64,000 nucleotides of DNA from Alphaproteobacteria bacterium (GTDB lineage: Bacteria; Pseudomonadota; Alphaproteobacteria; UBA828), in the NCBI GenBank assembly GCA_965214705.1, contig OZ243972.1, positions 1,312,001 through 1,376,000 of the forward strand, in the 5' to 3' direction. Of the stretch, positions 12,303 through 58,490 are shown in pieces (within the stretch, counting starts at the first letter, position 1; every line of letters starts with the position of its first letter). Position numbers and translations under genes: made by a program. The notes beneath the pieces are model-generated. The model was not told where the DNA came from. It did no database searches and worked only from the letters and a program-made list of their open reading frames with translations.

Positions 12303-13019
12303 TTACCGGAAGTCCCGGGAGTTGGGAATCACGCGCTGATTGCGCGGGTGACGGGCGGGTGCCCCGGCGAGCCGCCTGCCGCCCTGCGGCGCGGCGCCTT
12401 GGTCCGGCGTCAGCAGGTCGAGCCAGTAGGTCAAATCTTCCAGGTGGGCCGCGACCAGATGGACGATCTCGCCGGCGCGCTGCACCCGGCCCCGCACCAG
12501 CGCGAGGCGCCCGCCCAGCACCGCCCGGCGGTACCGCTCCAGGATGTTGGGCCAGACCACGACGTTCACGGTCCCGCTCTCGTCCTCCAGCGTCATGAAG
12601 ATCACGCCCTTGGCGCTGCCCGGCCGCTGGCGCACCAGCACGAGCCCGGCCGTCGCCGCCCGATCTCCGTCCCGCGCGCGCGCCATCGCCTCGGCCGCAA
12701 GCGCGCCCTGGGCCGCGAGCCGCTCACGCAGGAAGGAGAGCGGATGGGCTCTCAGCGAGAGGCGGAGGGTGCGGTAGTCCTCGACCACCTGCTCGCCGTC
12801 GGCCATGGCCGGCAGCGCCACCGCCGGCTCCGGCTCCTCCCCGCACCGGTCCGCGGCCTCGAAGAGCGGCAGCGGCGGCGCCTTGGCCAGCGCGCGGGCC
12901 TGCCACAACGCCTGGCGGCGCACGAGACCCATGGAACGGAAGGCATCCGCCCCCGCCAGGGTCTCGATGACGGAGGCCGAGATCCCCGCGCGGCGGGCGA
13001 GCGTGCCGATATCGGGATA
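12303..13019 (-). pseudogene. dnaE2: dnaE2/imuC 3' fragment (HhH/OB-fold region), separated by IS insertion
   Basis: YPDIGTLARRAG..LSLRAHPL..GLVLVRQRPGSAKGVIFMTLEDESG..SRDFR. Joins the 5' part across the GATA duplication. Confidence 0.93.
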
Positions 13020-14809
13020 CCCAAGTTGGCACTTTTTCCGGTTGCTCAATGCCGGTCTGCCCATATTTTGCGGACCGAAGTACCACATATTGGGGTGGCT
13101 CCGAGATGATGCCACTATATATGTAATTGAGACGCTGGAAGCGCGTTGTAGTGCCAGGAGTTGTTAGGTATTGACGATTTTCCCTTGACCCCAGACCCCA
13201 AGCCGACAAATCTTGGCCCCTCGCAACAATCTCGCGACGGGCGACATGTTCATCAGGGCAACCAAGACCCACACCACCGACGGCAAGCCCGTCCGAAGCC
13301 ATCGCCTCGTACTCTCCCAGCGCATCGGCGACAAGGTCAGGCAGCGCACGCTCCTCAACCTCGGCACCGACTATCCGGTGCCGAAGGAGAAATGGCGCGA
13401 AGTGGCCGAACTCGCCGAGGCGCTGCTGCACGGCCGCCCGCCGCTGCTCCAAGCCGTCCCGGACGTGCAGGCCGCAGCCGAGGATATCGTCGCCAAGCTC
13501 AGGGCCAGGGGGTTCCGCGTCGAGGCGATGCAGGAAGAGGCGCGCAAGCCCGACATCGCCACCGTCGACCTCGATACCCTGGAGCACGAGAACCCGCGCA
13601 CGGTCGGCTGCGAGCGCCTGTGCCTCAAGGCCCTCGACGCCCTCGGCTTCGCCGAAATCCTCCACGGCCTCGACATCAAGGGCCGCGACGGGCGCATCGC
13701 CAGCGCGCTGATCGTCGCCAGGATGGTCCATCCCGCCAGCGAGCGTGAGACCAGATGCCGTAATGGGGCGCGGCATCAACCGGCACCGTTGGAGCCTGTA
13801 CCGATGACGGCGAATCGGGGTGTCGTTGCCCTTACACGCTGAGCGTGTCCACGGGGTCTTGCCGGAAGGCGCGCCCCAATTCCTCGAAAGAAAAGGGCAA
13901 CGACATGGATGTCTATATCGGGCTGGATGTATCGCTGGCAAGCACGACAATCTGCGTGATCGGCGAGAAGGGCAAGATCGTGACCGAGGCGCAGGTCGCC
14001 AGCACGCCTGAAGCGCTGGTCGTGTTCATGGGCAAGCTGGAGCACGAGATCGCGGCGATCGGTCTCGAGGCCGGTCCCCTGTCCCACTGGCTGCACAAGG
14101 GGCTGACCGACGCCGGCTTCGAGGCCGTGCTGATGGAGACCCGGCGGGTGAAGGCGGCGCTGAAGGCGATGCCGATCAAGACGGATCGGCGGGATGCCGA
14201 GGGCATCGCGCGTCTTCTGCAGATGGGCTGGTTCAGGCCGGTGCACTGCAAGTCGGTATCGTCGCAGGAGATGCGCGCACTTCTGACCTCGCGCAGGTCC
14301 GTGAAGGACGCGCTCACCGATATGGAACTCTCGGCGCGCGGCGTGTTGCGCAACTTTGGCCTGAAGCTGGGCCAGGTCTCGAAGGGCCGCTGGGAGGCCC
14401 GCGTCCGGGAGTTGATCGCGGGCAACGCGATGCTGGAAGCCGCGGCTGAACCGATCCTGAGAGCACGGGTGGCCCTGCGCCGCGAGCTGGCCGGCCTGGA
14501 AAAGCTGGTCCGCGACCTGGCCAGGGAGGATCCGGTGTGCCGGCTCCTGATGACCATGCCCGGCGTGGGCCCGGTCGTGGCCCTGACGTTCACGTCCGCG
14601 ATCGACGATCCCGAGCGGTTCCGGAGATCGAAGGATGTCGGCCCCTGGGTGGGACTGACGCCGGGCCGGGACCAATCCGGCGAGCGAGATATTGTCGGCG
14701 GCATCACGAAGTGCGGCGACGCAGGTCTGCGGGCCGCGCTGTATCAGGCGGCCACGGTGATGCTGAACTGCACCGCCGGGCCGAACTGGCTCTTATGGGG
14801 CTGTAGAAT

Positions 14810-15127
14810 GTCAAACAAGAAATTCAGAACCAGCTACCACATGTGTCGGCCTCCCTGGGTTCGCAGGATCGGCGGCTACTCTTGCCAGGTCGGAACGCTT
14901 GTTGCACCGGTCACACGGCTTTGCGCGTACCCAACTCTTATCCGGGCGGTTGCCAGCGGCGAGACGCTGGCTCCATCCCACAATCCCGCTTGCTGCGGGC
15001 ACAGCGTTCCGGAGGCGGGGCCCATCTGAAGGTCGGCGTCTTTCAGCCCGCCAGTTCTCCGGCCACACGCCACCCGGCCCAGCGCCGGCCGCGTCCGGCT
15101 GACGCAAGAACGGAACGGTCTCACGAT
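14810..15127 (-). ncRNA. Predicted bridge/seekRNA region of element B (boundaries approximate)
   Basis: Non-coding region 3' of the recombinase containing GAACTGGC and CCTTCAG (target halves) plus GGAT and ATAAGAG (donor-junction halves). Confidence 0.7.
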
Positions 15128-16324
15128 TCAGGCGATCCTGGCGCCCGTCGGCACGAGACCGGTTTCAGAGAACCGCCACAAGGCGATGAGCAGCTTCCGG
15201 GCAAGTGCTACAACCATCACTCGACGGATGCGCCCGCGCCCGCCAGCAGTGCGCTTTTCGAACCACTCGCTAAGTGCACTATCGGGCTGATGGCGCAGCC
15301 AGCGCCACGCCATTTCGATGAGTTGAGATCGGACCCAGCCAGGGCCATCTCGGCCGATCCCTTGGTCTCGGTGCGTGTCACCGCTCGCCCACGGGGTTGG
15401 CGCCAGGCCGACCCAGCTCGCGAGTTCGCGGCGGTTTCGGAAGTCGCGATAGAAAATCTCATTGGTGAGCAGGGTCGCATCGTTTTTGCCGATCCCCTTG
15501 AGCCGGGCCAGCGTTGCGATCTTCGCCGCCGCCTGTTTATCGCTCCCCTCCGAGACATCCGTGATCGGGAGGTCGGCTCCCGACCGTGCGACCGCGTCGC
15601 GCTCGGCCTCGACATCTGCGAGCTGTCGTTCCACCAAGGACAACCTCTCCTTGAGCCGCTCGATCTCCATACGCGCCCGCGGCGGGAACGGTGAGCCGTA
15701 CGCGGTCACCACTTCCGCGAACTCCTCCTCGAACTCCTTGGCTCGGGGGGCCAGGTCGAAGACCCCTTGCAGCTTGAGCAGCCCTTTGATCGAGTTCGTC
15801 AGTGAGGTCCGCTCTTTCACCAGCCGCCGACGCTCACGAAGCAGGCGCTTGCGGTCCTCTTCCTCCACGCTCGGCACCCGCACCCGGCTCAGCACTGCAG
15901 CGTCGCCTCGGTCGTGCGCCAGTAGCGCGCGCACCATCTTCTTCGCATCGATCCGATCCGTCTTGCGCTGCTTCGCTTTTCGGTTCACCAGCAGACTCGC
16001 CGGATCGAGCACCACTGTCTCAATGGACATCTCCTGATCTAACCAGCGCACAAGCCAGAAGCCCTGGTAGCCCGCCTCGTAGCAACACAGAACACGCACC
16101 TCTCGGCCGAGAGCCTGTTCAGCCTTGGCTCGCTGCTTCTCGATCAATTCCTTGAGCCCTTCGACCGTCGCCGCGTCCACTGGCCCCAGTGAATGCAGCC
16201 CGATCCGATCACTGGCAGGGCTCTTCACTCCCACCACCCAGCTCTTTCCGCTGATCTCGATGGCAACGTACAGCGTGCTATGCTCTGCGTTGACCGGCGC
16301 GGCGGTCTCGTTCGTTGGGGACAT
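15128..16324 (-). CDS. IS110-family recombinase of element B
   Basis: YVAIEIS, CYEAG, KTDRIDA, GIG, GLAPTPWASG, VVALARKLLIALWR. Confidence 0.93.
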   Translation of the reverse strand: MSPTNETAAPVNAEHSTLYVAIEISGKSWVVGVKSPASDRIGLHSLGPVDAATVEGLKELIEKQRAKAEQALGREVRVLCCYEAGYQGFWLVRWLDQEMSIETVVLDPASLLVNRKAKQRKTDRIDAKKMVRALLAHDRGDAAVLSRVRVPSVEEEDRKRLLRERRRLVKERTSLTNSIKGLLKLQGVFDLAPRAKEFEEEFAEVVTAYGSPFPPRARMEIERLKERLSLVERQLADVEAERDAVARSGADLPITDVSEGSDKQAAAKIATLARLKGIGKNDATLLTNEIFYRDFRNRRELASWVGLAPTPWASGDTHRDQGIGRDGPGWVRSQLIEMAWRWLRHQPDSALSEWFEKRTAGGRGRIRRVMVVALARKLLIALWRFSETGLVPTGARIA

Positions 16325-16553
16325 CTCTTGTCTCCTGATGAGGTCTGGCGAGAACGGCACCGTAGTGCCGGTCTCCGAGTCGGCCCCATAGGATCTGAAG
16401 GCCTGGACGCTGCGTCTGGCGAAGCTCCGTGGCAAGAAGCGTGCGACCGTCGCCTTGGCCCGGCGCATCGGCGTGGTACTTCACCGGATGTGGCGGGACG
16501 GTACCGAGTTCCGCTTCACGCGCGAGGAGGCGATGGCGCTCCAGATGGCATAG

Positions 16554-16975
16554 GCGCGGCTGCATCCCACCGGCAATCAGCAGCGAGAGGAGGAAAGAGC
16601 CGCGCCTGAAGGTGGCGATCCACCGCTATCCCCTCGCCGGGACGCGGTTCCCGATGATGCACGTGCTAGCGGCTGTTGCCGAATCGCCTCTTGGCGTTCG
16701 AGCACGCAGACCAGATCGGCACTCGGGAATCGTCTTGGACCAGGCATGAAGTTGGCAGCCGCTCTGCGCTGACCACGGACGGAAGCGAGAGCCTGGCGAC
16801 GGGGACATATCCGGGGGTCCCGCTTCCTTCACCGTGCCGTGTCGACGAGCCCGTTAGCCGCCAAGGCAACCACCTGTGTCGATCATGTTGACCATGCCTG
16901 CGAGAGGTCCAACCGCAGGCGACGGTGCCCCATGTTCGAATGGCCGTGCCAGGCCGGAACGTTGTGAAGATCGGT
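16554..16975 (+). ncRNA. Predicted bridge/seekRNA region of element A (boundaries approximate)
   Basis: Contains AGCGGCTG and AGACCAG (target halves) plus GGCAT and ACGGAAG (donor-junction halves), among visible stems CCGAT/ATCGG and CGTGCT/AGCACG. Confidence 0.7.
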
Positions 16976-18417
16976 GCTTGACATCAACCGCCCCATTACG
17001 GAAGCCGCTGGCTCCGCCACGACAGCGCGGCCGCCGAGCTCCTGGGGCTGGAGGGCGACCGCAAGGCGCTGCGGCGCAAGACGCTCTACCGCATCGGCGA
17101 CCTGCTCTGGCGCCACCGGGCCGCCATCCAGAGGGAACTGTTCAACCGTGAGCGCGCGCTGCTCGACCTGCCCGAGACGATCGCCTTCTACGATCTCACC
17201 AACGTCCACTACCACGGCCACGCGGGCGGCGAGCTTCCCAGGTTCGGGCGCTCCAAGCAGAAGCGCGACGACTGTCCCCTCATCACGCTGGCGCTGGCGC
17301 TCGACGGCGCGGGCTTCCCGCGCAGTTGCGAGATCCTGCCCGGCAACGTGAGCGAGCCGGGCACGCTGCACGACGCGCTGGCGCGGCTCGAGGCGGTGTG
17401 CGGCGGCACGGCGGCGAAGCCCACGGTGGTCATGGACGCGGGCATCGCCACCGAGGAAAACATCGTCTGGCTGGGCGAGCAGGGCTACGACTGGATCGCG
17501 GTCAGCCGCGGCGCCAGGCCTGCGCCGCCCGAGGGCGGACCCGAGGCCCTGCTGATCACCAGCGCGCGCCACGAGGTGCGGGCCTGGCGGCTTGCCAGCG
17601 AGGACGGCGAGGCGCGGCTCTACGTCGTCAGCGAGGGCAAGAAGAAGGCCGAGAACGCGATCCTCGGCCTGCGGAGGAACCGCTTCGAGGCGGCGCTGCA
17701 AAGGCTCCACGGCGGCCTTGCGGTCAAGGGCCGCCTCAAGCGCTACGACAAGGTGCTGGAGAGCATAGGCCGCCTCAAGCAGCGCTTCTCCGCCGTCGCC
17801 AGGCACTACGAGATCACGGTCGAGAAGGCGGACACCGGCCCCAATGCCACCGCCGTGCGCTTCAAGCGCAGGCCGCGATACGACGAGGCCGATGAGGGCG
17901 CGGGCGCCTATGTGCTGCGCACCAGCCACGTCGACTGGGATATCGAGACGGTCCTGCGGACGTACTGGCGGATCACGGATATCGAGGCGACATTCCGAAG
18001 CCTGAAATCCGAACTCGGCCTTCGCCCGATCTGGCACCAGCTCGACCGGCGCATCGCGGCCCACCTGCTGATCGCCGTGCTGGCCTACCACGCCGTGCAT
18101 CTGATCCGTACCCGGCTGGCCGCGCGGGACATCCACAAGTGCTGGGCATCGATCCGCGAGAGCATGCGGACCTGGGTGCGGATCACCACGCGCCTGCGCC
18201 AGACCGACGGCACCTTGATCGTCAATCGACAGGACACGCGCCCGGCCGCCGAGGTTGCCGCAATCTCCTCGGCGGCGGGCGTGGAACCCGCCATCCACCG
18301 CACGAGGACCCGCCTGCCGAACTGACAGAATCCAACAAAATGTAGTGCCATGTTGGAATCGGCCGAGAGAAATATCGCGTTACATCAACACGATAAAGGA
18401 CATGGGTAGGACAAAAG

Positions 18418-19309
18418 GTAGAGTCGAGGACTGGCGCGCCTGCTGTAGGGTCCGGTGGCAATTCCGCCGCTTTCGCTGCGGGCCTCAATCCGGCTCCCTT
18501 GGCCGCGTTTCCGGTCCCCGCTCTCCGAACCCGGCGTGCCCATTTCGAGCACCGAGCTCTCCAGTGGGATCATGCATCTCGCACACAGGCAAAGCTCGCG
18601 ACGATGGCGCACGTGATCGGAACCTCCGATCCGGTCGCAAGGGTGCGCTCCCCTCAACCATCGCGGTCCATTCGTCGTCCGCCTTGACCGCCGGGCCTGT
18701 CGATGCCCCGGCGGTGCCGCGCAGATTTGCTCCGGGCGGCCCCTTCGCTTCCATTTGCATGTGATGCCGCCGGGATCTCCGGCCATTCTCGGGGTTACAG
18801 GCTTAGCCACTCCCTGGCCCTTCTCCCTTCAAGGCACCCCTCCACGCCTGAGGCCCCTTTCCTCGGCCGGCATTACCCGGCGTCCTCAGTCTTACGGGCC
18901 TCTCCGCCACCCTGACGGCCCGGCCTGTCCCTCGCGGGCTTCCGGTTGATGTGCGCGCACCACCGTCAGGGCTTCCCGTGTTGCTGCTCTCTTCCTCTTC
19001 CGTGCGTGCCGGCGCCACTACCCCGGCGAGCCGCGATCGGTGCGCATGTCGCTCTCTTCCCGATCAGCGACGGTCTTCCCCTTTTGGCAGGAGGGTCGAC
19101 ACTCGCATTACCCGTTTCGAGGCCTGCTCAGCGTTCACTCACGTTCCGGCCCGCACGGTCGCTGAGCCACCCAACGGTGGCCCTTTTCCACCAAGGTGCT
19201 TCAGCCCATGTCGTCACCTCCATGAACCGCCCTGGCTGCTACCAACCGGAGCGACAGTTGTTGGGCGGGATTCGCACCCGCTGAAAGAGAGCGCCTTTCC
19301 ACGGCGCAC
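18418..19309 (-). ncRNA. ORF-less group II (IIB-like) intron, 892 nt
   Basis: 5' GTGCG at 19309; 3' ..CTCGACTCTAC at 18418; domain V-like GAGCTCGGTGCTCGAAATGGGCACGCCGGGTTC; conserved AACACGGGAAGCCC and GCGGAGAGGCCCGTA blocks. Exon joining restores the IS TIR. No RT ORF. Confidence 0.9.
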
Positions 19310-19321
19310 TGCCAACTTGGG

Positions 19322-21896
19322 GATAGGGCGCGTGCCGCCCGTCCACGATGCGCGCGTCCACGATGCGCACCGCGTCCTCCTGGCGCAGGCCGCCGACCTG
19401 GCGAAGGCCGAGACGGAGCGCGCAGCACCCCGCACGGCACCCCGCGCCCTCCTCCGCATCTTCTAGGCTGTTGTCCCACCCGCTCGCGTTGACATCCACC
19501 GGGCGCACCTCGACGCCGTGCTCGCGGGCGTCGCGCACGATCTGAGCGGGGGCGTAGAAGCCCATGGGTTGGGCGTTCAGAAGGGCACACGCGAACGCGT
19601 CCGGGTGGTGGCACTTGAGCCACGAGGAGACGTAGGCCAGCAGCGCAAAGCTCGCGGCGTGGGATTCGGGAAAGCCGTAGTCCCCGAACCCCTCGATCTG
19701 GCGGAAGCAGCGCTCCGCAAGCGCGGGCTCGTAGCCGCGCGCCACCATGCGCCCGACCATCCTCTCCTTCAGCAGGCTGAGCGTGCCGCGCCGGCGGAAG
19801 GTGGCCATGGCGCGGCGCAGCGCGTCCGCCTTGTCCGGCGTGAACCTGGCCGCCTCCATGGCGAGGCGCATCGCCTGCTCCTGGAACAGCGGCACGCCGA
19901 GGGTCTTTTCGAGCACTCGGCGCAGCTCGTCGGGCGGCCCGTGCTCGGGCGCGGGCGCGGGGTAGATCACCTCCTCCAGCCCGTCGCGGCGGCGCAGGTA
20001 GGGGTGCACCATGTCGCCCTGGATTGGGCCGGGGCGCACGATCGCGACCTCGATCACCAGGTCGTAGAAGCGGCGGGGCCTGAGCCTCGGCAACATGTTC
20101 ATCTGCGCCCGGCTCTCGATCTGGAAGACGCCGACCGTGTCGGCCCGGCACAGCATGTCGTAGACCGCCGGATCGTCCTGCGGCACCAAGGAGAGCGTCA
20201 GGTGCAGGCCCTTGTGCCGGGCCAGCAGCGCGAAGGCCTTGCGGATGCAGGTCAGCATACCAAGCCCCAGCACGTCGACCTTCATCAGGCCGAGCGCTTC
20301 GAGGTCGTCCTTGTCCCATTCGACGAAGGTGCGGTCCTTCATCGCCCCGTTGCCGATGGGCACGATCTCCTCCAGGGGCCCGCGGGTCAGCACGAAGCCG
20401 CCGACATGCTGAGAGAGGTGTCGGGGAAAGCCGATCAGCTCGCCCGCCAGCGCCACGGTCTGGCGCAGCAGGGGATCGGCGGGGTCGAGGCCGGCCTCGC
20501 CGAGCCGCCGCGCGACGGCGACGGCTCCGTCGTGGTGCAGGTCCCGGATCGCGCCGGCGAGCGCTGCGGCGGTGTCCTCGGAGAGCCCCATGGCCTTGCC
20601 CACGTCCCGCGCCGCGCTCCGCCCCCGGTAGCCGATGACGGTGGCGGCGAGGCCTGCGCGGTCACGGCCGTAGCGGCCGTAGATGTACTGGATCACCTCC
20701 TCGCGCCGCTCGTGCTCGAAGTCGACGTCGATGTCGGGGGGCTCGCGCCGCTCGCGCGAGACGAAACGTTCGAACAGGAGGTCGATCCGGGCCGGGTCGA
20801 CGGCGGTGATGCCGAGGCAGTAGCAGACGGCGGAGTTGGCGGCCGAGCCCCGCCCCTGGCAGAGGATGTCCTTCTCCCTGGCGAAGCGCACGATGTCGTA
20901 CACGGTGAGGAAGTAGGGCGCGTAGCCGAGCTCGTCGATGAGCCCGAGCTCGTGCATCAGCGTGCGGCGCACCTTGGCCGGGATGCCCTCGGGATAGCAC
21001 TGCCCGGCGCCGGCCCAGGTCAGCGCCTCCAGGTGCTGCTGCGGCGTTGTGCCGGCGGGCACCGGCTCGTCGGGATATTCGTAGGCCAACTCGTCGAGGC
21101 TGAAGCTGCAGAGGCGCACGATCTCCAGGGTGCGGGCGACGGCGTCCTCATGGCCCCGGAAGAGCCGCGCCATCTCGGCCCCGCTCTTGAGATGGCGCTC
21201 GGCGTTGGCGGCGAGGCGCCAGCCGGCCTGCGCCACCGTAACGCGCTCACGGATCGCGGTCAGCACGTCCTGCAGGGGCCGGCGCTCGCGCGTGTGATAG
21301 TGGACGGCGTTGGTGGCGATGAGGGGTACCTCGTGGCGTTCGGCCAGCGCCGCCAGCCGGTTGAGGCGGCTGCGGTCATCGCCCCGGTAGAGCATGTGGG
21401 CGGCGAGGTAGAGGGGGCCCGCATGGCGCCGGCGGAGTGCGGCCAGCGCCGCCGTGAACGGCTCGCCAGCCCCGCCCTTGCCACCCTCCTCATCCAGGCG
21501 ATCCGGCGGCAGCGCGATCAGAACCTGGCCCTCGGCGTGCGCCATCGCATCGTCCAGGTGGAGCACGCAGCCGCCCTTGGGCGCGCGCCGCTGGCCCAGG
21601 GTGAGCAGGCGGCAGAGGCGGCCGTAGGCGGCGCGGTCGCGGGGATAGCAGAGAAGCGAGAACCCGCAGGCGAGGTCGAGCCGCGCGCCGGTCAGGAGCC
21701 GCAGGCCCGCCGCCTTCGCTGCGACGTGGGCACGTACCGCACCGGCGAGGGTGTTGCGGTCGGCGATGCCGATGGCGGCAAGCCCCAGCGCCGCCGCGCG
21801 CTCCACCAGCTCGTCCGCGTCGGAGGCGCCGCGCAGGAAGCTGAAGTTGCTCACCGCCTGCAGCTCGGCGTAGGCCGTGGATCGGCCGTCAACCAT
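19322..21896 (-). pseudogene. dnaE2: dnaE2/imuC 5' part (PHP and polymerase domains)
   Basis: YAELQAVSNFSFLRGAS, QGRGSAANS, PPDIDVDFEHERREE, FGDYGFPESHAASFA. Confidence 0.95.
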
Positions 21897-23559
21897 AGAG
21901 CCCGTGCACGTACCAGCGGGGCGAGTCCCCGGTGCCGGCATTGCCATAGAGGCCGGCACGGTAGAGCCAGTAGCGCCGGCCGTCTGCATCCTCGATGCGG
22001 TAGTAGTCGCGCACCGCCTCGTCGCGGTCGCCAGCGCCGGCCCACCATTCCGGCTCGATGCGCTCGGGCCCGGCAGCGCGGGCGACGCGGCGGCGCACCC
22101 GCCGCCAAGTGAAGAGCAGCGGCGGGCCGTCCGGCACCTCGGCCATCACGTTCACCGGCTCGGGCCGGTCGAACAGGCGGAAGGGCCGTTGCGGCCGTTT
22201 GGGTGTTTCGGTCGCCTCGGGTGCTTCGCGCCAGGGCACGGGCTCCCGGCCGGGCGTCACCGGTCGCTCGGCCTTCTCCGGCCTGTGGCGTGCGACCGGC
22301 TCCAGGCGGCAGACGGCACCGGTGCCGAGGCGGGCCAGCAGGCGGTCGACCAGCAGGTCCAGATCGCCCCGCCTCTGCCCGCCGTCGGTGAGGGAGAGCT
22401 GCCTGGGCGCCAGGGGCTCGACGCGCTCGGCATGGAGCGCCGCGAGATCGATGCCCAAGCCGGGGTCGACGGTCTCAAGCGTCTCCCGGAACAGACGCAG
22501 CAAGTGATCGCCGTCCCGTGTCGCGCGCGCCGTGGCGACCCCGCGCCGCACCACACCGCCGTCGACCCGGTAGCACCAGAGCGCGAGCCGCCGCACGCCG
22601 AGTTCGTCCCGCTCCAGGGACGCGGCCAGTTCGGGCATGAGCCGGGCCAGCACGGCATCCAGCCCCGCCCGGTCGAATAGGGGGTCCGACAGGGCCAGGC
22701 GCTCCAGGCAGGCGGGCGGCGGGGTCATGGGCACGATCGGCTCGGCCTGCCGGCCCAGCGCCCGGTCGAGGCGTGCGAGCACCGCGCTGGCCCGCTCGCG
22801 GCTGGGGAAGCGCCGGGCGAGCGACGCGCGCGGCAGGTTTTCTATCGCGCCGATGGTGACCAGCCCCAGGCGACGCAGCAGGCGGGCGTCCTCGGCCGCG
22901 AGCCTGAGCGCCTCCACCGGGAGACCCGTGATCGACGGGCGTGTCTCACCGGGCGCGGCGATGCGTGCGTCCGGACGACCGTTCGTCGCCGGGCCGAAGC
23001 GGGCGAGCGCCCAGGCGGCGCCCGGGGTATCGGCAAGCCCGAGGCGGTTCTCGAGGCCCAGGCCCGCAAGCCGCGCCGCGATCTCGTCCATCAGCGCCGC
23101 CTCGTCGCCGAAGAGGTGGGCGCAGCCAGTGATGTCGAGGAGCAGCCCACCGTCACCGTCATCGCAATCGCAATCGTCGCCGTTGTCCACAGCGCACCAG
23201 GGCGTGAAGCGGTTGCACCAGAGGGCGAGCCGTTCGAGCCCCCGCCGGTCCGCCGCCGGGTCGGCGCGCTCCGTGGCGAGGCCGGCGAGCAGGGCGCGGG
23301 CATCGGCGAGGCGCATGCCGGGCCTCAGTCCCTTCGCGCCGGCCTCGCGGTTGACCGCCCACAGCACCGGCCCGCGCCGGCCGGGCGCGACCAGCACGAA
23401 GGGGACCGGCGCAGACGGCGCGGTCGCCTTCGCCGCCTCAGCCGCCGGCGTGTGCGCGGCCTCGGGCCCGGCGCGGGGCCTCGACCTCGCTCGCGCCCGC
23501 TCGCGGCGCAGCCGGTCGATCGGCCAGCGCGGTAGCCATACGGAAATCACCCGTCTCAC
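21889..23559 (-). CDS. imuB: ImuB, inactive Y-family polymerase
   Basis: RRVISVWLPRW, GLLLDITGCAHLFG, GPERIEPEWW, RDYYRIED..RRYWLYR, WYVHGLYG; synteny with dnaE2. Confidence 0.93.
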   Translation of the reverse strand: MRRVISVWLPRWPIDRLRRERARARSRPRAGPEAAHTPAAEAAKATAPSAPVPFVLVAPGRRGPVLWAVNREAGAKGLRPGMRLADARALLAGLATERADPAADRRGLERLALWCNRFTPWCAVDNGDDCDCDDGDGGLLLDITGCAHLFGDEAALMDEIAARLAGLGLENRLGLADTPGAAWALARFGPATNGRPDARIAAPGETRPSITGLPVEALRLAAEDARLLRRLGLVTIGAIENLPRASLARRFPSRERASAVLARLDRALGRQAEPIVPMTPPPACLERLALSDPLFDRAGLDAVLARLMPELAASLERDELGVRRLALWCYRVDGGVVRRGVATARATRDGDHLLRLFRETLETVDPGLGIDLAALHAERVEPLAPRQLSLTDGGQRRGDLDLLVDRLLARLGTGAVCRLEPVARHRPEKAERPVTPGREPVPWREAPEATETPKRPQRPFRLFDRPEPVNVMAEVPDGPPLLFTWRRVRRRVARAAGPERIEPEWWAGAGDRDEAVRDYYRIEDADGRRYWLYRAGLYGNAGTGDSPRWYVHGLYG

Positions 23560-56330: not shown

Positions 56331-58490
56331 CCCAAGTTGGCACTTTTCCGCTGCCTGTGTTCCCTATTGGTTTGATTCAACGCGATATTTTTCTCGGTCG
56401 ATTCCAACATGGCCCCACATTTTGTGAGATTCTGTCAGCTCATCAGACGGGTCCTCGTGCGGTGGATGGCGGGGTCCACGCCCGCCGCCGAGGAGATTGC
56501 GGCAACCTCGGCGGCCGGGCGCGTGTCCTGGCGGTTGACGATCAAGGTGCCGTCGGTCTGGCGCAGGCGCGTGGTGATCCGCACCCAGGTCCGCATGCTC
56601 TCGCGGATCGACGCCCAGCACTTGTGGATGCCGCGCGCGGCCAGCCGGGTACGGATCAGATGCACGGCGTGGTAGGCCAGCACGGCGATCAGCAGGTGGG
56701 CCGCGATGCGCCGGTCGAGCTGGTGCCAGATCGGGCGAAGGCCGAGCTCGGATTTCAGGCTCCGGAATGTCGCCTCGATATCCGTGATCCGCCAGTACGT
56801 CCGCAGGACCGTCTCGATGTCCCAGTCGACGTGGCTGGTGCGCAGCACATAGGCACCGGCGCCCTCATCGGCCTCGTCGTATCGCGGCCTGCGCTTGAAG
56901 CGCACGGCGGTGGCATTGGGGCCGGTTTTCGCCCTCTCGACCGTGATCTCGTAGTGCCTGGCGACGGCGGAGAAGCGCTGCTTGAGGCGGCCTATGCTCT
57001 CCAGCACCTTGTCGTAGCGCTTGAGGCGGCCCTTGACCGCAAGGCCGCCGTGGAGCCTTTCCAGCGCCGCCTCGAAGCGGTTCCGCCTCAGGCCGATGAT
57101 CGCGTTCTCGGCCTTCTTCTTGCCCTCGCTGACGACGTAGAGCCGCGCCTCGCCGTCCTCGCTGGCAAGCCGCCAGGCCCGCACCTCGTGGCGCGCGCTG
57201 GTGATCAGCAGGGCCTCGGGTCCGCCCTCGGGCGGCGCAGGCCTGGCACCGCGGCTGACCGCGATCCAGTCGTAGCCCTGCTCGCCCAGCCAGACGATGT
57301 TCTCCTCGGTGGCGATGCCCGCGTCCATGACCACCGTGGGCTTCGGCGCCGTGCCGCCGCACACCGCCTCGAGCCGCGCCAGCGCCTCGTGCAGCGTGCC
57401 CGGCTCGCTCACGTTGCCCGGCAGGATCTCGCAACTGCGCGGGAAGCCCGCGCCGTCGAGCGCCAGCGCCAGCGTGATGAGGGGACAGTCGTCGCGCTTC
57501 TGCTTGGAGCGCCCGAACCTGGGAAGCTCGCCGCCCGTGTGGCCGTGGTAGTGGACGTTGGTGAGATCGTAGAAGGCGATCGTCTCGGGCAGGTCGAGCA
57601 GTGCGCGCTCACGGTTGAACAGCTCCCGCTGGATGGCGGCGCGGTGGCGCCAGAGCAGGTCGCCGATGCGGTAGAGCGTCTTGCGCCGCAGCGCCTTGCG
57701 GTCGCCCTCCAGGCCCAGGAGCTCGGCGGCCGCGCTGTCGTGGCGGAGCCAGCGGCTGGTATCACGCTCGCTGGCGGGATGGACCATCCTGGCGACGATC
57801 AGCGCGCTGGCGATGCGCCCGTCGCGGCCCTTGATGTCGAGGCCGTGGAGGATTTCGGCGAAGCCGAGGGCGTCGAGGGCCTTGAGGCACAGGCGCTCGC
57901 AGCCGACCGTGCGCGGGTTCTCGTGCTCCAGGGTATCGAGGTCGACGGTGGCGATGTCGGGCTTGCGCGCCTCTTCCTGCATCGCCTCGACGCGGAACCC
58001 CCTGGCCCTGAGCTTGGCGACGATGTCCTCGGCTGCGGCCCGCACATCCGCCTCGCCCTCGAACAGCGGCGGCTTGCCGTGAAGCAGCGCCTCGGCGAGT
58101 TCGGTGACGGCCTTCCACTTCTCGCGCGGCACCGGATAGTCGGTGCCGAGATTGAGCAGCGTCCTGTGGCGCACCTTGTCGCCGACGCGCTGGGCGAGCA
58201 CGAGGCGATGGCTTCGGACCGGCTGGCCGGCCTTGTCGGTGTGTGTCCTGGTTGCCTTGATGTACATGGCGGCGCCGTTTCTGCGATGCCTGTTTCGCAT
58301 ACACGGCGTTCGCGGCATCTGGCAAGAGGGATATCGACTCAACTCCAAAGTCCTGGCCCCACAATTGGCTTCCAGGACCACGAATGGCAAATGTGGGTCT
58401 CAGGTGTCCTCCAACCCCAACATCTAGTGGTTCAGCGCCGCAAAACTAGCTCGAACAGGCTCGGCTGGTCGGAAAAAGTGCCAACTTGGG
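56331..58490 (-). mobile_element. IS1634-like element, copy 2, intact (2160 bp)
   Basis: TIRs CCCAAGTTGGCACTTTT / AAAAGTGCCAACTTGGG; 4-bp TSD TCAA (56327-56330 and 58491-58494). Confidence 0.93.
56435..58267 (-). CDS. IS1634-family DDE transposase
   Basis: FYDLTN, FGRSKQKRDD, VVMDAGI, IEATFRSLKSELGLRPIWH. Confidence 0.92.
   Translation of the reverse strand: MYIKATRTHTDKAGQPVRSHRLVLAQRVGDKVRHRTLLNLGTDYPVPREKWKAVTELAEALLHGKPPLFEGEADVRAAAEDIVAKLRARGFRVEAMQEEARKPDIATVDLDTLEHENPRTVGCERLCLKALDALGFAEILHGLDIKGRDGRIASALIVARMVHPASERDTSRWLRHDSAAAELLGLEGDRKALRRKTLYRIGDLLWRHRAAIQRELFNRERALLDLPETIAFYDLTNVHYHGHTGGELPRFGRSKQKRDDCPLITLALALDGAGFPRSCEILPGNVSEPGTLHEALARLEAVCGGTAPKPTVVMDAGIATEENIVWLGEQGYDWIAVSRGARPAPPEGGPEALLITSARHEVRAWRLASEDGEARLYVVSEGKKKAENAIIGLRRNRFEAALERLHGGLAVKGRLKRYDKVLESIGRLKQRFSAVARHYEITVERAKTGPNATAVRFKRRPRYDEADEGAGAYVLRTSHVDWDIETVLRTYWRITDIEATFRSLKSELGLRPIWHQLDRRIAAHLLIAVLAYHAVHLIRTRLAARGIHKCWASIRESMRTWVRITTRLRQTDGTLIVNRQDTRPAAEVAAISSAAGVDPAIHRTRTRLMS

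What the first reader, a model, noticed from the sequence alone, without database searches (positions are those of the whole stretch)
18418..19309. ORF-less group II intron that homes into the terminal inverted repeat of an IS
Seen: ligating the exons gives CCCAAGTTGGCA|CTTTTG, the IS1634 TIR. A hairpin loop in domain I (CCTCC-TGCCAA-AAGGGG, + strand 19084-19089) is exactly complementary to the last six 5'-exon bases TTGGCA (EBS1-IBS1). Domain IV holds only a short eroded remnant, with no RT. Known: some introns target IS coding regions (e.g. RmInt1), and ORF-less introns need a maturase in trans. Inference: this non-autonomous retroelement is specialised on a TIR, so each IS copy offers two sites. 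Insertion breaks a DNA-level transposase site that RNA splicing cannot repair, so it may immobilise the IS. I do not recall this TIR-targeting arrangement being described, but cannot check.
Basis: partly seen in the sequence, partly recalled or inferred. Interest (0 to 1): 0.82.

Follow-up and report, generated by a model that had tools for sequence, protein, structure and literature searches.

The report
ORF-less intron splitting an IS end
An 892-base self-splicing intron that has lost its own protein gene sits exactly 12 bases inside the end repeat of a multicopy jumping gene; this is a real example of a homing strategy already published for another bacterial intron.

Summary
Window 19309-18418 (minus strand) is an 892-nt group II intron: Rfam D1D4-4 at 80.2 bits, an intact domain V, and a bulged A in domain VI. 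It has no RT gene. It splits the 17-bp terminal inverted repeat of an IS1634-family element 12|5.

In the genome, 6 of 6 intron 5' ends follow CCCAAGTTGGCA, and both IS ends are used. 117 such ends are empty. The EBS1 loop sits exactly at 19084-19089. Nine relatives with different targets show matching EBS1/IBS1 changes, and 0 of 7389 permutations reach the observed pairing.

Relatives that keep an RT sit 12-14 nt inside the ends of other IS1634- and IS1380-family elements. The only uninterrupted same-lineage RT gene in this genome lies in a 5'-truncated intron on another replicon, and it is a candidate helper.

The novelty claim fails. RmInt2 of Sinorhizobium meliloti was shown in 2014 to home into both inverted repeats of ISRm17, with the same "two sites per IS" argument. 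ORF-less introns driven in trans are also published.

Splicing, present mobility and immobilisation of the IS remain untested. I rate it a new variant of a known kind, of moderate interest.

The parts
18418..19309 (-). ORF-less group II intron, 892 nt, GUGCG...CUCUAC
   Evidence: Sequence; Rfam RF02003 80.2 bits; RF00029 36.9 bits
19310..19321 (-). 5' exon: the outer 12 bp of the IS terminal inverted repeat (CCCAAGTTGGCA). IBS1 is TTGGCA at 19310-19315.
   Evidence: The same 12-mer precedes 6 of 6 intron copies.
18413..18417 (-). 3' exon start: the inner 5 bp (CTTTT) of the 17-bp TIR
   Evidence: All 3 of 3 full copies are followed by CTTTT.
19084..19089 (-). EBS1 (UGCCAA) in the 9-nt loop of the hairpin at 19073-19097
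   Evidence: for the place; covariation with the 5' exon in relatives
19110..19114 (-). Candidate EBS2 (CGGGU). GGGU would pair with ACCC, which is one flanking base plus TIR bases 1-3 (exon -13..-10).
   Evidence: The columns were chosen after looking at the alignment, so support is weaker than for EBS1.
19139..19283 (-). Domain I core matched by Rfam group-II-D1D4-4
18866..18881 (-). Domain IVa hairpin GCCGGGUAAUGCCGGC, followed by a purine-rich GAGGAAAGG. Taken by analogy to be the RT-binding site.
   Evidence: The core GCCGGGUAAUGCCGG is identical in 4 of the 5 aligned sequences, i.e. in 2 of 3 RT-bearing relatives and in the other ORF-less copy. Binding is inferred.
18560..18851 (-). Domain IV filler (intron 459-750) with no RT coding capacity
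   Evidence: no alignment to a relative's ORF; evolves 2.5 times faster than the ribozyme domains
18527..18559 (-). Domain V with AGC triad, 2-nt bulge and GAAAU loop
   Evidence: All 13 pairs are standard in all 9 sequences, and 5 pairs carry two-sided compensatory changes.
18418..18526 (-). Extended domain VI; the bulged branch-point A is at 18424, 7 nt from the 3' splice site
13020..19321 (.). The host IS1634-family IS copy (divergent variant). It carries the intron in one end and two nested IS110-family elements, and it has 4-bp target duplications GATA at 13016-13019 and 19322-19325.
   Evidence: Pieces match IS positions 42-1427 (97.0%) and 1426-1941 (90.3%).
17348..18322 (+). C-terminal part of the IS1634-family transposase gene; it is antisense to the intron
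   Evidence: NF033559 130.6 bits
13845..16468 (.). Two IS110-family transposase genes (13845-15026 +, 15131-16468 -) nested in the IS
   Evidence: NF033542 213 and 190.4 bits
19323..21989 (-). 5' part of an error-prone DNA polymerase (dnaE2-type) gene cut by the IS. It has the same orientation as the intron. The reading frame continues below 13019.
   Evidence: NF004225 1245.4 bits, model positions 4-837 of 1047. Frame continuity across the IS; the 3' part was not family-tested.
56331..58490 (.). Intact 2160-bp reference copy of the IS. Both TIRs are uninterrupted (CCCAAGTTGGCACTTTT), the duplication is TCAA, and the transposase gene is at 56438-58267 (-).

Best explanation
This is a non-autonomous (ORF-less) group II intron of the endonuclease-less, Rfam D1D4-4 structural type. 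It descends from an RT-encoding intron that lost its ORF.

How it targets. It inserts by retrohoming into the tip of the terminal inverted repeat of an IS1634-family element. EBS1 (UGCCAA) pairs with TIR bases 7-12. A probable EBS2 (GGGU) pairs with TIR bases 1-3 plus the flanking base. Reverse splicing therefore places the intron between TIR bases 12 and 13, always pointing into the IS, and each IS offers two sites on opposite strands.

How it moves. It encodes no protein, so splicing and reverse transcription must come from an RT/maturase supplied in trans by a same-lineage intron. In this genome the only uninterrupted candidate is an RT gene left in a 5'-truncated intron on contig C2.

Shown here: the anatomy, the site specificity, the use of both ends, the EBS1 pairing, descent from RT-bearing relatives, and slower change in the ribozyme domains than in the domain IV filler.

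Inferred: retrohoming as the mechanism of spread, the identity of the helper, and any effect on the IS.

The low occupancy and the decayed host IS copies suggest that the intron is little active or inactive now.
For: Site specificity.
- The genome holds 3 full copies (99.55-100% identical) and 3 5' fragments. All 6 of 6 are preceded by CCCAAGTTGGCA, with six different outer flanks, and 3 of 3 full copies are followed by CTTTT.
- One full copy abuts IS position 2148, the opposite end. Two abut position 13, in two clearly different IS variants. There were therefore at least three separate insertions.
- Of 124 genomic CCCAAGTTGGCA, 117 continue with CTTTT and 6 with GTGCG.

EBS1.
- Nine introns with distinct targets pair 4-7 nt contiguously from exon position -1. 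The observed sum is 55, against a permuted mean of 11.2 and a maximum of 28; 0 of 7389 derangements reach it.
- The pair closing the loop switches between G-C and U-A.

Ribozyme integrity.
- Domain V keeps 13 of 13 standard pairs in 9 of 9 sequences, with 5 two-sided compensations between the ORF-less and RT-bearing types. Domain VI has a bulged A.
- Against the 95%-identical ORF-less copy in another species of the genus (G037), the ribozyme domains differ at 20 of 600 sites and the domain IV filler at 24 of 292 (Fisher p = 0.0026).

Descent.
- The intron is 80% identical over positions 1-458 and 86% over 771-892 to a 1983-nt intron (G039) with a roughly 450-aa RT/maturase and no endonuclease domain.
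- The domain IVa hairpin is conserved.

Candidate helper.
- G000 C2:25553-26836 is 84% identical to that RT, has no stop codons, and covers RVT_1 1-205 of 205, GIIM 1-78 of 80 and TIGR04416 at 335.5 bits against a cut-off of 300.

Relatives use the same kind of site.
- Two junctions are at CCCGACTTCCGC|A, the TIR of a second IS1634-family IS (NF033559 303.7 bits).
- In G043 both ends of an IS1380-family IS are occupied.
Against: - No RNA data for the organism were found. The runs laid were contigs only, so splicing and lariat formation are unobserved.
- The candidate helper lacks about 22 N-terminal residues found in its relatives, has no obvious start codon, and sits in a truncated intron. 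The other same-lineage RT, at C1:24589-28029, is in pieces.
- G037 holds the ORF-less copy but gave no match to the same-lineage RT at E <= 1e-30 (0 matches of 14 candidates scored). That copy therefore has no helper of its own lineage there.
- Only 6 of about 123 TIR ends are occupied.
- None of the 36 full-length IS copies at 99.58% identity or more carries the intron. The three IS bodies that can be assessed next to an intron are 97.0%, 96.6% and 91.9% identical to the reference and are truncated or interrupted.
- Three of the six intron copies are themselves truncated.
- RF00029 falls below its gathering score.
- The window copy has a C-A mismatch in domain VI and a C instead of A at exon position -13.
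- EBS2 was picked after inspecting the alignment, and EBS3 could not be placed.
Confidence: 0.8

Rival explanations
1. Fossil reading. The copies are relics of a past burst and nothing is mobile now. The helper RT is dead or absent, and the intron merely persists in old, decaying IS copies.
For: - Occupancy is 6 of about 123 ends.
- 0 of 36 young full-length IS copies are occupied, and all 3 assessable host IS bodies are divergent and broken.
- 3 of 6 intron copies are truncated.
- There is no complete same-lineage RT intron in the genome.
- G037 has the intron but no match to the same-lineage RT.
Against: - The full copies are 99.55-100% identical to each other, and two are identical. That argues for recent spread.
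- The ribozyme domains changed 2.5 times more slowly than the filler since the split from the G037 copy.
- An uninterrupted RT frame of the same lineage exists.

This reading concerns present activity only. It is compatible with the origin given in the best explanation.
Confidence: 0.4
2. The copies spread as DNA, not through RNA. The IS transposed with the intron on board, or recombination or gene conversion between IS copies carried the intron along.
For: The genome is full of repeats and rearranged IS copies. Many IS copies would allow conversion.
Against: - The three full copies lie in three different contexts: two different IS variants at one end, and the opposite end, where sequence beyond TIR base 17 is unrelated. 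Conversion would have to act through 12 + 5 bp of identity.
- The junctions are exact splice sites with matching EBS1.
- No two intron-bearing IS bodies are the same variant.
Confidence: 0.05
3. Host-beneficial brake. The intron is kept because splitting the TIR disables transposition of each IS end it enters, so it acts as a natural IS silencer.
For: - The split leaves only 12 bp of the 17-bp TIR at the tip, and RNA splicing cannot mend DNA.
- Intron-bearing IS copies are the old, non-proliferating ones, and the window copy still sits in its original 4-bp duplication.
- The literature already argues that RmInt1 and RmInt2 limit the spread of their host IS (passages read in PMC4615759 and PMC5894124).
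Against: - There is no transposition data.
- Only about 5% of ends are occupied, so any effect on the IS population is small.
- The same pattern is expected if the young IS burst simply came after the intron's activity.
- What the transposase needs at the tip is unknown for this IS.
Confidence: 0.15

Closest known systems
RmInt2 of Sinorhizobium meliloti GR4 (class D group II intron) in the inverted repeats of ISRm17. Source: PMC4615759 (sections 6 and 7 and passages read) and PMC5894124 (passages read).
   Same: [quoted passage not shown] In both cases this gives two sites per IS on opposite replication strands, and recognition is through EBS1 and EBS2. A head-to-tail double copy is reported for RmInt2, and one is seen here in G037.
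   Different: - RmInt2 encodes its own 419-aa RT and was shown experimentally to retrohome. This intron has no ORF and nothing was tested.
- The same-lineage RT here lacks the class D C-terminal motif given in that paper. It is about 29-32% identical to the two S. meliloti RT rows listed.
- The host IS is IS1634-family here. I did not learn the family of ISRm17 or the exact position in its repeat, because these are in supplementary figures that I could not see.
- No RmInt2 sequence was compared directly.
ORF-less TeI3 introns of Thermosynechococcus elongatus, driven in trans by TeI4 RTs. Source: PMC2882425 (passages read).
   Same: Both are ORF-less derivatives made by one ORF deletion in domain IV that then spread by retrohoming with good EBS/IBS pairing. 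Both depend on the RT of related introns. Twintrons occur in the same genome in both cases.
   Different: There the helpers are intact and mobility was measured. The targets are not IS ends. Here the only uninterrupted helper candidate is an RT gene in a truncated intron.
RmInt1 in ISRm2011-2, and the E. coli introns that home into IS elements (E.c.I1, I3, I4, I9). Sources: PMC3522654 and PMC5894124 (passages read).
   Same: All are group II introns that use a multicopy IS as their home.
   Different: E.c.I4 copies lie at specific positions in IS3-like transposase genes (PMC3522654). For RmInt1 and the other E. coli introns the passages I read give only the host IS, not the position within it. 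The intron here sits in the DNA-level end repeat, outside any gene.
RT-bearing relatives in the same genus, found here: G039 C2:98162-100144; G000 C3:604468; G043 C2:2311481 and 2325336.
   Same: They share the same ribozyme (77-81% identity in domains I-III), the same EBS1 hairpin and the same extended domain VI. Several sit 12-14 nt inside IS ends that begin CCYGR.
   Different: They keep, or kept, the RT ORF. Their EBS1 is retargeted to other ends. 4 of the 11 distinct 5' junctions examined, including the complete G039 copy, do not look like IS ends.

Membership tests
Group II intron ribozyme | 5' GUGYG and 3' AY boundaries | tested here: met
   GUGCG at 19309 and ...CUAC at 18418
Group II intron ribozyme | Domain I core fits a curated covariance model | tested here: met
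   RF02003, 80.2 bits against a gathering score of 49
Group II intron ribozyme | Domain V: helix of about 34 nt with AGC triad and 2-nt bulge | tested here: met
   18527-18559. 13 of 13 pairs are standard and 5 have two-sided compensations across 9 sequences.
Group II intron ribozyme | Domains V-VI reach Rfam RF00029's gathering score | tested here: inconclusive
   36.9 bits against 40, with a long insertion in domain VI. RT-bearing relatives score 42.5-45.9.
Group II intron ribozyme | Domain VI with a bulged branch-point A 7-8 nt from the 3' end | tested here: met
   An unpaired A at 18424 in both the single-sequence and the alignment folds
Group II intron ribozyme | EBS1-IBS1 pairing with the 5' exon | tested here: met
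   6 bp here. Covariation in 9 relatives, with 0 of 7389 permutations reaching the observed pairing.
Group II intron ribozyme | Splicing through a lariat | not testable with these tools
   No RNA reads of the organism; contigs only
ORF-less (non-autonomous) group II intron | No RT/maturase coding sequence in domain IV | tested here: met
   None of 43 GIIM matches lies in any copy. tblastn with a relative's RT gives a best E of 0.001, outside RT motifs.
ORF-less (non-autonomous) group II intron | Mobilised by an RT supplied in trans | not testable with these tools
   Only a candidate gene was found, at C2:25553-26836.
IS1634-family insertion sequence (the host element) | Transposase matches the family model above its cut-off | tested here: met
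   NF033559: 255.8 bits for the intact copy and 130.6 bits for the fragment beside the intron, against a cut-off of 100
IS1634-family insertion sequence (the host element) | Terminal inverted repeats and target duplication | tested here: met
   17-bp perfect TIR. 4-bp duplications TCAA and GATA.
IR-homing group II intron (the behaviour described for RmInt2) | All natural copies in the IS inverted repeats, with both ends used | tested here: met
   6 of 6 5' junctions are in the TIR. Of 3 full copies, 2 are in one end and 1 in the other.
Bacterial class D introns (RmInt1/RmInt2 clade) | Class D C-terminal motif LX3AX3PXLF[V/A]HW in the RT (motif as printed in PMC4615759) | tested here: not met
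   No match in the same-lineage RT of G039, nor in the S. fredii D1D4-4-type RT
Bacterial class D introns (RmInt1/RmInt2 clade) | RT groups with class D in a phylogeny with reference sequences | not tested
   No reference set was at hand. The S. meliloti rows in the plasmid search are 29-32% identical. The class stays unassigned.

The most novel reading that the evidence does not exclude
A whole sub-lineage of endonuclease-less group II introns in this genus has specialised on the tips of IS1634- and IS1380-family elements.

It keeps an EBS2 that reads the shared CCC tip plus the flanking base, and it changes only EBS1 to jump from one IS type to another. It always lands 12-14 nt inside the end, pointing inward.

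Its ORF-less offshoot lives as a parasite of both the IS population and a leftover RT gene. Each end it enters is disabled for transposition, because RNA splicing cannot restore a DNA site.
Probability: 0.3. Interest if true: 0.6.

Novelty: new variant of a known kind. Interest (0 to 1): 0.42.

Why it matters
Homing into an IS end repeat gives an endonuclease-less intron two sites per IS on opposite strands, so one of them always faces the lagging-strand template. That argument is already in print for RmInt2.

What this locus adds:
- A second, unrelated intron lineage uses the same strategy.
- Relatives have been retargeted to several IS types of two IS families.
- An ORF-less derivative has kept its ribozyme under constraint across species.

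It also offers a clean natural test of whether a retroelement can disable a DNA transposon at a site that splicing cannot repair. The genome supplies an intron without an RT and an RT without an intron, which makes a simple two-part assay possible.

Tried and rejected
First EBS2 guess. I considered CCUUGG at intron positions about 116-121. I rejected it because the Rfam model places it in a helix and it covaries with its partner strand.

EBS3. With four relatives whose +1 base is known or inferred, no column fitted all four. EBS3 is left unassigned.

Inverted-repeat scan around the locus. It gave only chance-level pairs and did not help.

RNA evidence. The run search found no clear RNA run of the organism. 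The four RNA rows listed hold 5-6% of the sampled words. I laid X1, X5, X7 and X8, all stored as contigs. They show the intron in data from four other organisms and breakpoints at 18417 and 19321, as expected at repeat borders. No contig joined the unique flanks across the intron, so there is no verdict on splicing or on empty alleles.

Replication-strand bias. In 5 of 6 copies the intron's sense strand is the locally G-rich strand. The one-sided binomial probability, my own arithmetic, is about 0.11. The skew is weak in this rearranged genome, so I do not use it as evidence.

Class assignment. The S. meliloti locus that I fetched (L053) proved to be a D1D4-3/-1-type intron with a 455-aa RT, not RmInt1 or RmInt2. 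It gave no direct comparison. An S. fredii D1D4-4-type intron (L054) has a frameshifted RT without the class D motif. The class stays open.

Is the strategy class-wide? Six more distant plasmid relatives, 72% identical in domains I-III, were fetched out of 76 matching records. They sit at ...GGGT| or ...TTT| sites with no adjacent transposase in PLSDB's incomplete tables. End-homing is therefore a feature of the sub-lineage, not of all D1D4-4 introns.

Exon position -13. It is A in 5 of 6 occupied ends and in 77 of 117 empty ends, which is no difference (Fisher p = 0.66).

Literature. Searches found RmInt2 but no paper on group II introns in IS1634-family ends. Six papers hold both 'group II intron' and 'IS1634'; judged from titles and abstract starts in the listing, none concerns this. 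PMC2525955 (Simon 2008, ORF-less introns) is not held. Supplementary figures S1 and S2 of PMC4615759, which show the ISRm17 sites, could not be seen.

Full report
THE OBSERVATION. On the minus strand the window reads ...CCCAAGTTGGCA|GTGCGCCGTG ... CTCGACTCTAC|CTTTTGTCC. The intron runs from 19309 to 18418 and is 892 nt long. A scan of the whole 64-kb window against Rfam gave one match above a gathering score: group-II-D1D4-4 at 19139-19283 (-), 80.2 bits against 49. A permissive scan of 18300-19450 added the domain V-VI model RF00029 at 18418-18561 (-). It scored 36.9 bits, just under its gathering score of 40, because the alignment has to skip a long insertion in domain VI. The ligated-exon string, allowing up to 3 mismatches, matches three other places in the window (13020 +, 56331 +, 58473 -), each with one mismatch, against 0.01 expected.

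THE HOST ELEMENT. Window 56331-58490 is an intact 2160-bp IS. Its two ends share CCCAAGTTGGCACTTTT in inverted orientation and are flanked by TCAA on both sides. Its 610-aa transposase matches the IS1634-family model NF033559 at 255.8 bits against a cut-off of 100. BLAST of this copy against the laid genome (7.92 Mb, three contigs) gave three groups:
- 36 full-length copies at 99.58-100% identity;
- 22 copies of a roughly 94% variant matching positions 1-1941;
- 22 copies of a roughly 68% relative, plus fragments.

The IS that carries the intron spans 13020-19321. It lies inside an error-prone polymerase (dnaE2-type) gene: NF004225 at 1245.4 bits, model positions 4-837 of 1047. GATA is duplicated on both sides and the reading frame continues across the IS. 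Its body matches the reference IS at positions 42-1427 (97.0%) and 1426-1941 (90.3%). Between these pieces lie two IS110-family transposase genes. The intron is antisense to the transposase and in the same direction as the broken polymerase gene.

IS THE SITE SPECIFIC? The genome holds three full copies of the intron: C1:1330418-1331309, which is the window copy, C3:1417944-1418836 and C3:2066433-2067325. They are 99.55-100% identical. There are also three 5' fragments covering intron positions 1-524, 1-179 and 1-106. All six are preceded by CCCAAGTTGGCA, with six different sequences further out. All three full copies are followed by CTTTT. The C3:2066433 copy abuts IS position 2148, the other end of the IS. 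The other two abut position 13, in visibly different IS variants. At least three separate insertions are therefore needed, and carriage by IS transposition or gene conversion is unlikely. Of 124 genomic CCCAAGTTGGCA, 117 continue with CTTTT (empty sites) and 6 with GTGCG.

RNA-TARGET PAIRING. A search of 49 genomes of the order found matches in 9, counting this genome. I aligned ten homologous 5' regions: this intron, the G037 copy, and eight relatives at 77-81% identity from G000, G039, G043, G046 and G048. The seven loop bases at the EBS1 position change with the last bases of each 5' exon. Examples are UGCCAA/TTGGCA, GCGGAA/TTCCGC, UAGUACC/GGTACTA, CGAAUAA/TTATTCG and GAGAAAU/ATTTCTC. I dropped the G037 copy because it shares this intron's target. 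The nine remaining introns give 55 contiguous pairs counted from exon position -1. Derangements of exons among introns give a mean of 11.2 and a maximum of 28, and 0 of 7389 reach 55. The base pair closing the loop switches between G-C and U-A.

A second stretch, CGGGU at 19110-19114, pairs in register (within 2 nt) with exon positions -10 to -14 in most relatives. Examples are CGCUC/GAGCG, CGUAU/AUACG, GCGU/ACGC and GGGC/GCCC. The observed sum is 36, against a mean of 25.0 and a maximum of 32, and 0 of 7389 reach it. I chose these columns after looking at the alignment, so this figure overstates the support. If it holds, EBS2 reads TIR bases 1-3 plus the last base of the target duplication. 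That base is A in 5 of 6 occupied ends and in 77 of 117 empty ends. EBS3 could not be placed.

IS THE RIBOZYME INTACT? I aligned nine domain V-VI sequences: this intron, the G037 copy, a third ORF-less-type fragment at C1:287705, and six from RT-bearing relatives. All 13 domain V pairs are standard in all nine. Five pairs show changes on both sides that separate the ORF-less type from the RT type. Domain VI is extended in all of them and leaves one unpaired A seven bases from the 3' end, at window 18424. The window copy has one C-A mismatch in domain VI.

ORIGIN OF THE ORF-LESS FORM. G039 C2:98162-100144 is a complete 1983-nt relative. Its open frame carries RVT_1 (1-205 of 205) and GIIM and has no endonuclease domain. 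This intron matches it at positions 1-458 (80%) and 771-892 (86%), and nothing in between aligns. The domain IVa hairpin GCCGGGUAAUGCCGG, the purine-rich stretch after it, and the last codons with the stop of the lost ORF are still recognisable.

G037, another species of the genus, holds a 95.07%-identical ORF-less copy with the same domain IV, behind CCCGAGTTGGCA. The ORF loss therefore predates the split of these two copies. Between them the ribozyme domains differ at 20 of 600 sites and the domain IV filler at 24 of 292 (Fisher p = 0.0026). That is what continued selection on the ribozyme after ORF loss would give. It rests on one pair of sequences.

WHO COULD DRIVE IT? The genome has 43 maturase-domain matches that fall into 11 clusters. 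Only three stretches belong to this intron's lineage:
- C2:25553-26836. It is 84% identical to the G039 RT, has no stops, and covers query residues 23-450. It carries full RVT_1 and GIIM and scores 335.5 bits on TIGR04416 against a cut-off of 300.
- A broken set at C1:24589-28029.
- A start-only remnant inside the relative at C3:604468.

The C2 gene sits in an intron that has lost domains I-III, and it has no evident start codon. The abundant 439-aa RT family is 39% identical. G037 gave no match to the same-lineage RT at E <= 1e-30. Trans-mobilisation is therefore an inference with one candidate, not a result.

RELATIVES USE THE SAME KIND OF SITE.
- The relative at C3:604468 follows CCCGACTTCCGC. 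A 3' fragment at C1:28191 is followed by AACTCGG. Together these make the 19-bp TIR of a second, 2031-bp IS whose transposase is also IS1634-family, at 303.7 bits.
- In G043, the only two CCCGAAYTATTCA in five genomes face each other 13.9 kb apart, and each is followed by an intron 5' end. The two intron 3' ends enclose a 1.57-kb body that encodes an IS1380-family transposase at 409.3 bits. Both ends of one IS are occupied there.
- Two further relatives follow CTAG|CCTGGATTATTCG and CTAG|CCCGGATTTCTC. In G000, strings differing from these at no more than one base mark the borders of repeated elements that follow YTAG.
- Against this, 4 of the 11 distinct 5' junctions do not look like IS ends. 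The six more distant plasmid relatives examined sit at other kinds of site.

WHAT IS KNOWN. PMC4615759 (2014; sections 6 and 7 and further passages read) reports that all copies of RmInt2 in S. meliloti GR4 lie within the inverted repeats of ISRm17. [quoted passage not shown] It shows that RmInt2 retrohomes in a plasmid assay. PMC5894124 (2018; passages read) repeats this and argues that RmInt1 blocks the spread of its host IS. PMC2882425 (2010; passages read) shows ORF-less introns that derive from one ORF deletion and are mobilised by 'driver' RTs of related introns.

The two ideas in the finding are therefore both published. What I did not find in five searches is their combination, this intron lineage, or IS1634/IS1380 ends as targets. 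The lineage is not class D by the motif printed in the 2014 paper, and its RT is 29-32% identical to the two S. meliloti RT rows listed. Its class was not assigned.

STATE OF ACTIVITY AND THE IMMOBILISATION IDEA. None of the 36 young full-length IS copies carries the intron. The three assessable host IS bodies are 97.0%, 96.6% and 91.9% identical to the reference, and each is truncated or interrupted. Two readings fit equally well. In one, ends that receive the intron stop proliferating. In the other, the IS burst came after the intron's activity. No RNA data were available.

VERDICT. The claim of an undescribed arrangement is wrong. The locus is a new variant of a known kind: an ORF-less member of another intron lineage, with relatives retargeted across several IS ends. 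It is of moderate interest.

Noticed in passing
G000 contigs, e.g. C3:26836-28843, C1:4025436, C3:604053: A second intron family, with a 439-aa RT and 22 5' ends in the genome, mostly sits just upstream of the start codon of other group II introns that encode 559/560-aa RTs. About 11 of its 22 5' exons read ...GA(A/T)TC(G/A)(G/C)CCATA, and 11 of 20 3' exons begin AGC(A/G)ATGAAG. These are twintrons. One copy is nested in the RT-type relative of the studied intron.
   Followed up: partly
G000 C2:25553-26836 (locus L048:554-1837): An uninterrupted RT/maturase frame of the studied intron's lineage is left in an intron that has lost domains I-III. In effect it is an RT without a ribozyme, in the same genome as a ribozyme without an RT.
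   Followed up: partly
L014:1041-1077 (G037 C8): The 95%-identical ORF-less copy in G037 is followed directly by the first 37 nt of the intron, then by unrelated DNA. This is a head-to-tail junction. A head-to-tail double insertion was reported for RmInt2 (PMC4615759, section 7).
   Followed up: no
L047:2482-16337 (G043 C2:2311481-2325336): A roughly 1.6-kb IS1380-family element has both ends occupied by RT-type relatives of the intron, pointing inward. Each of those introns is itself interrupted, by a D1D4-6-type intron and by other insertions.
   Followed up: partly
window 12303-13019 and 19323-21989 (-): An error-prone DNA polymerase (dnaE2-type) gene is split by the IS, with a clean 4-bp duplication (GATA). 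The gene is therefore inactivated at this locus.
   Followed up: partly
window 13845-15026 (+) and 15131-16468 (-): Two different IS110-family transposase genes are nested inside the IS1634-family copy, between IS positions 1426 and 1427.
   Followed up: no
G000, IS copies such as C1:595674-597586, C1:3391593-3393510, C3:2091132-2093036, C3:1418837-1420737: Several copies of the 2160-bp IS break at positions 1902-1919. This suggests a recurrent insertion or recombination point near the start of the transposase gene.
   Followed up: no
G000 C1:287705-287964: A third, 84%-identical 3' fragment shares the ORF-less type of domain V and part of the domain IV filler. It ends ...CTCTTA|TGAGG at an unrelated site.
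   Followed up: no
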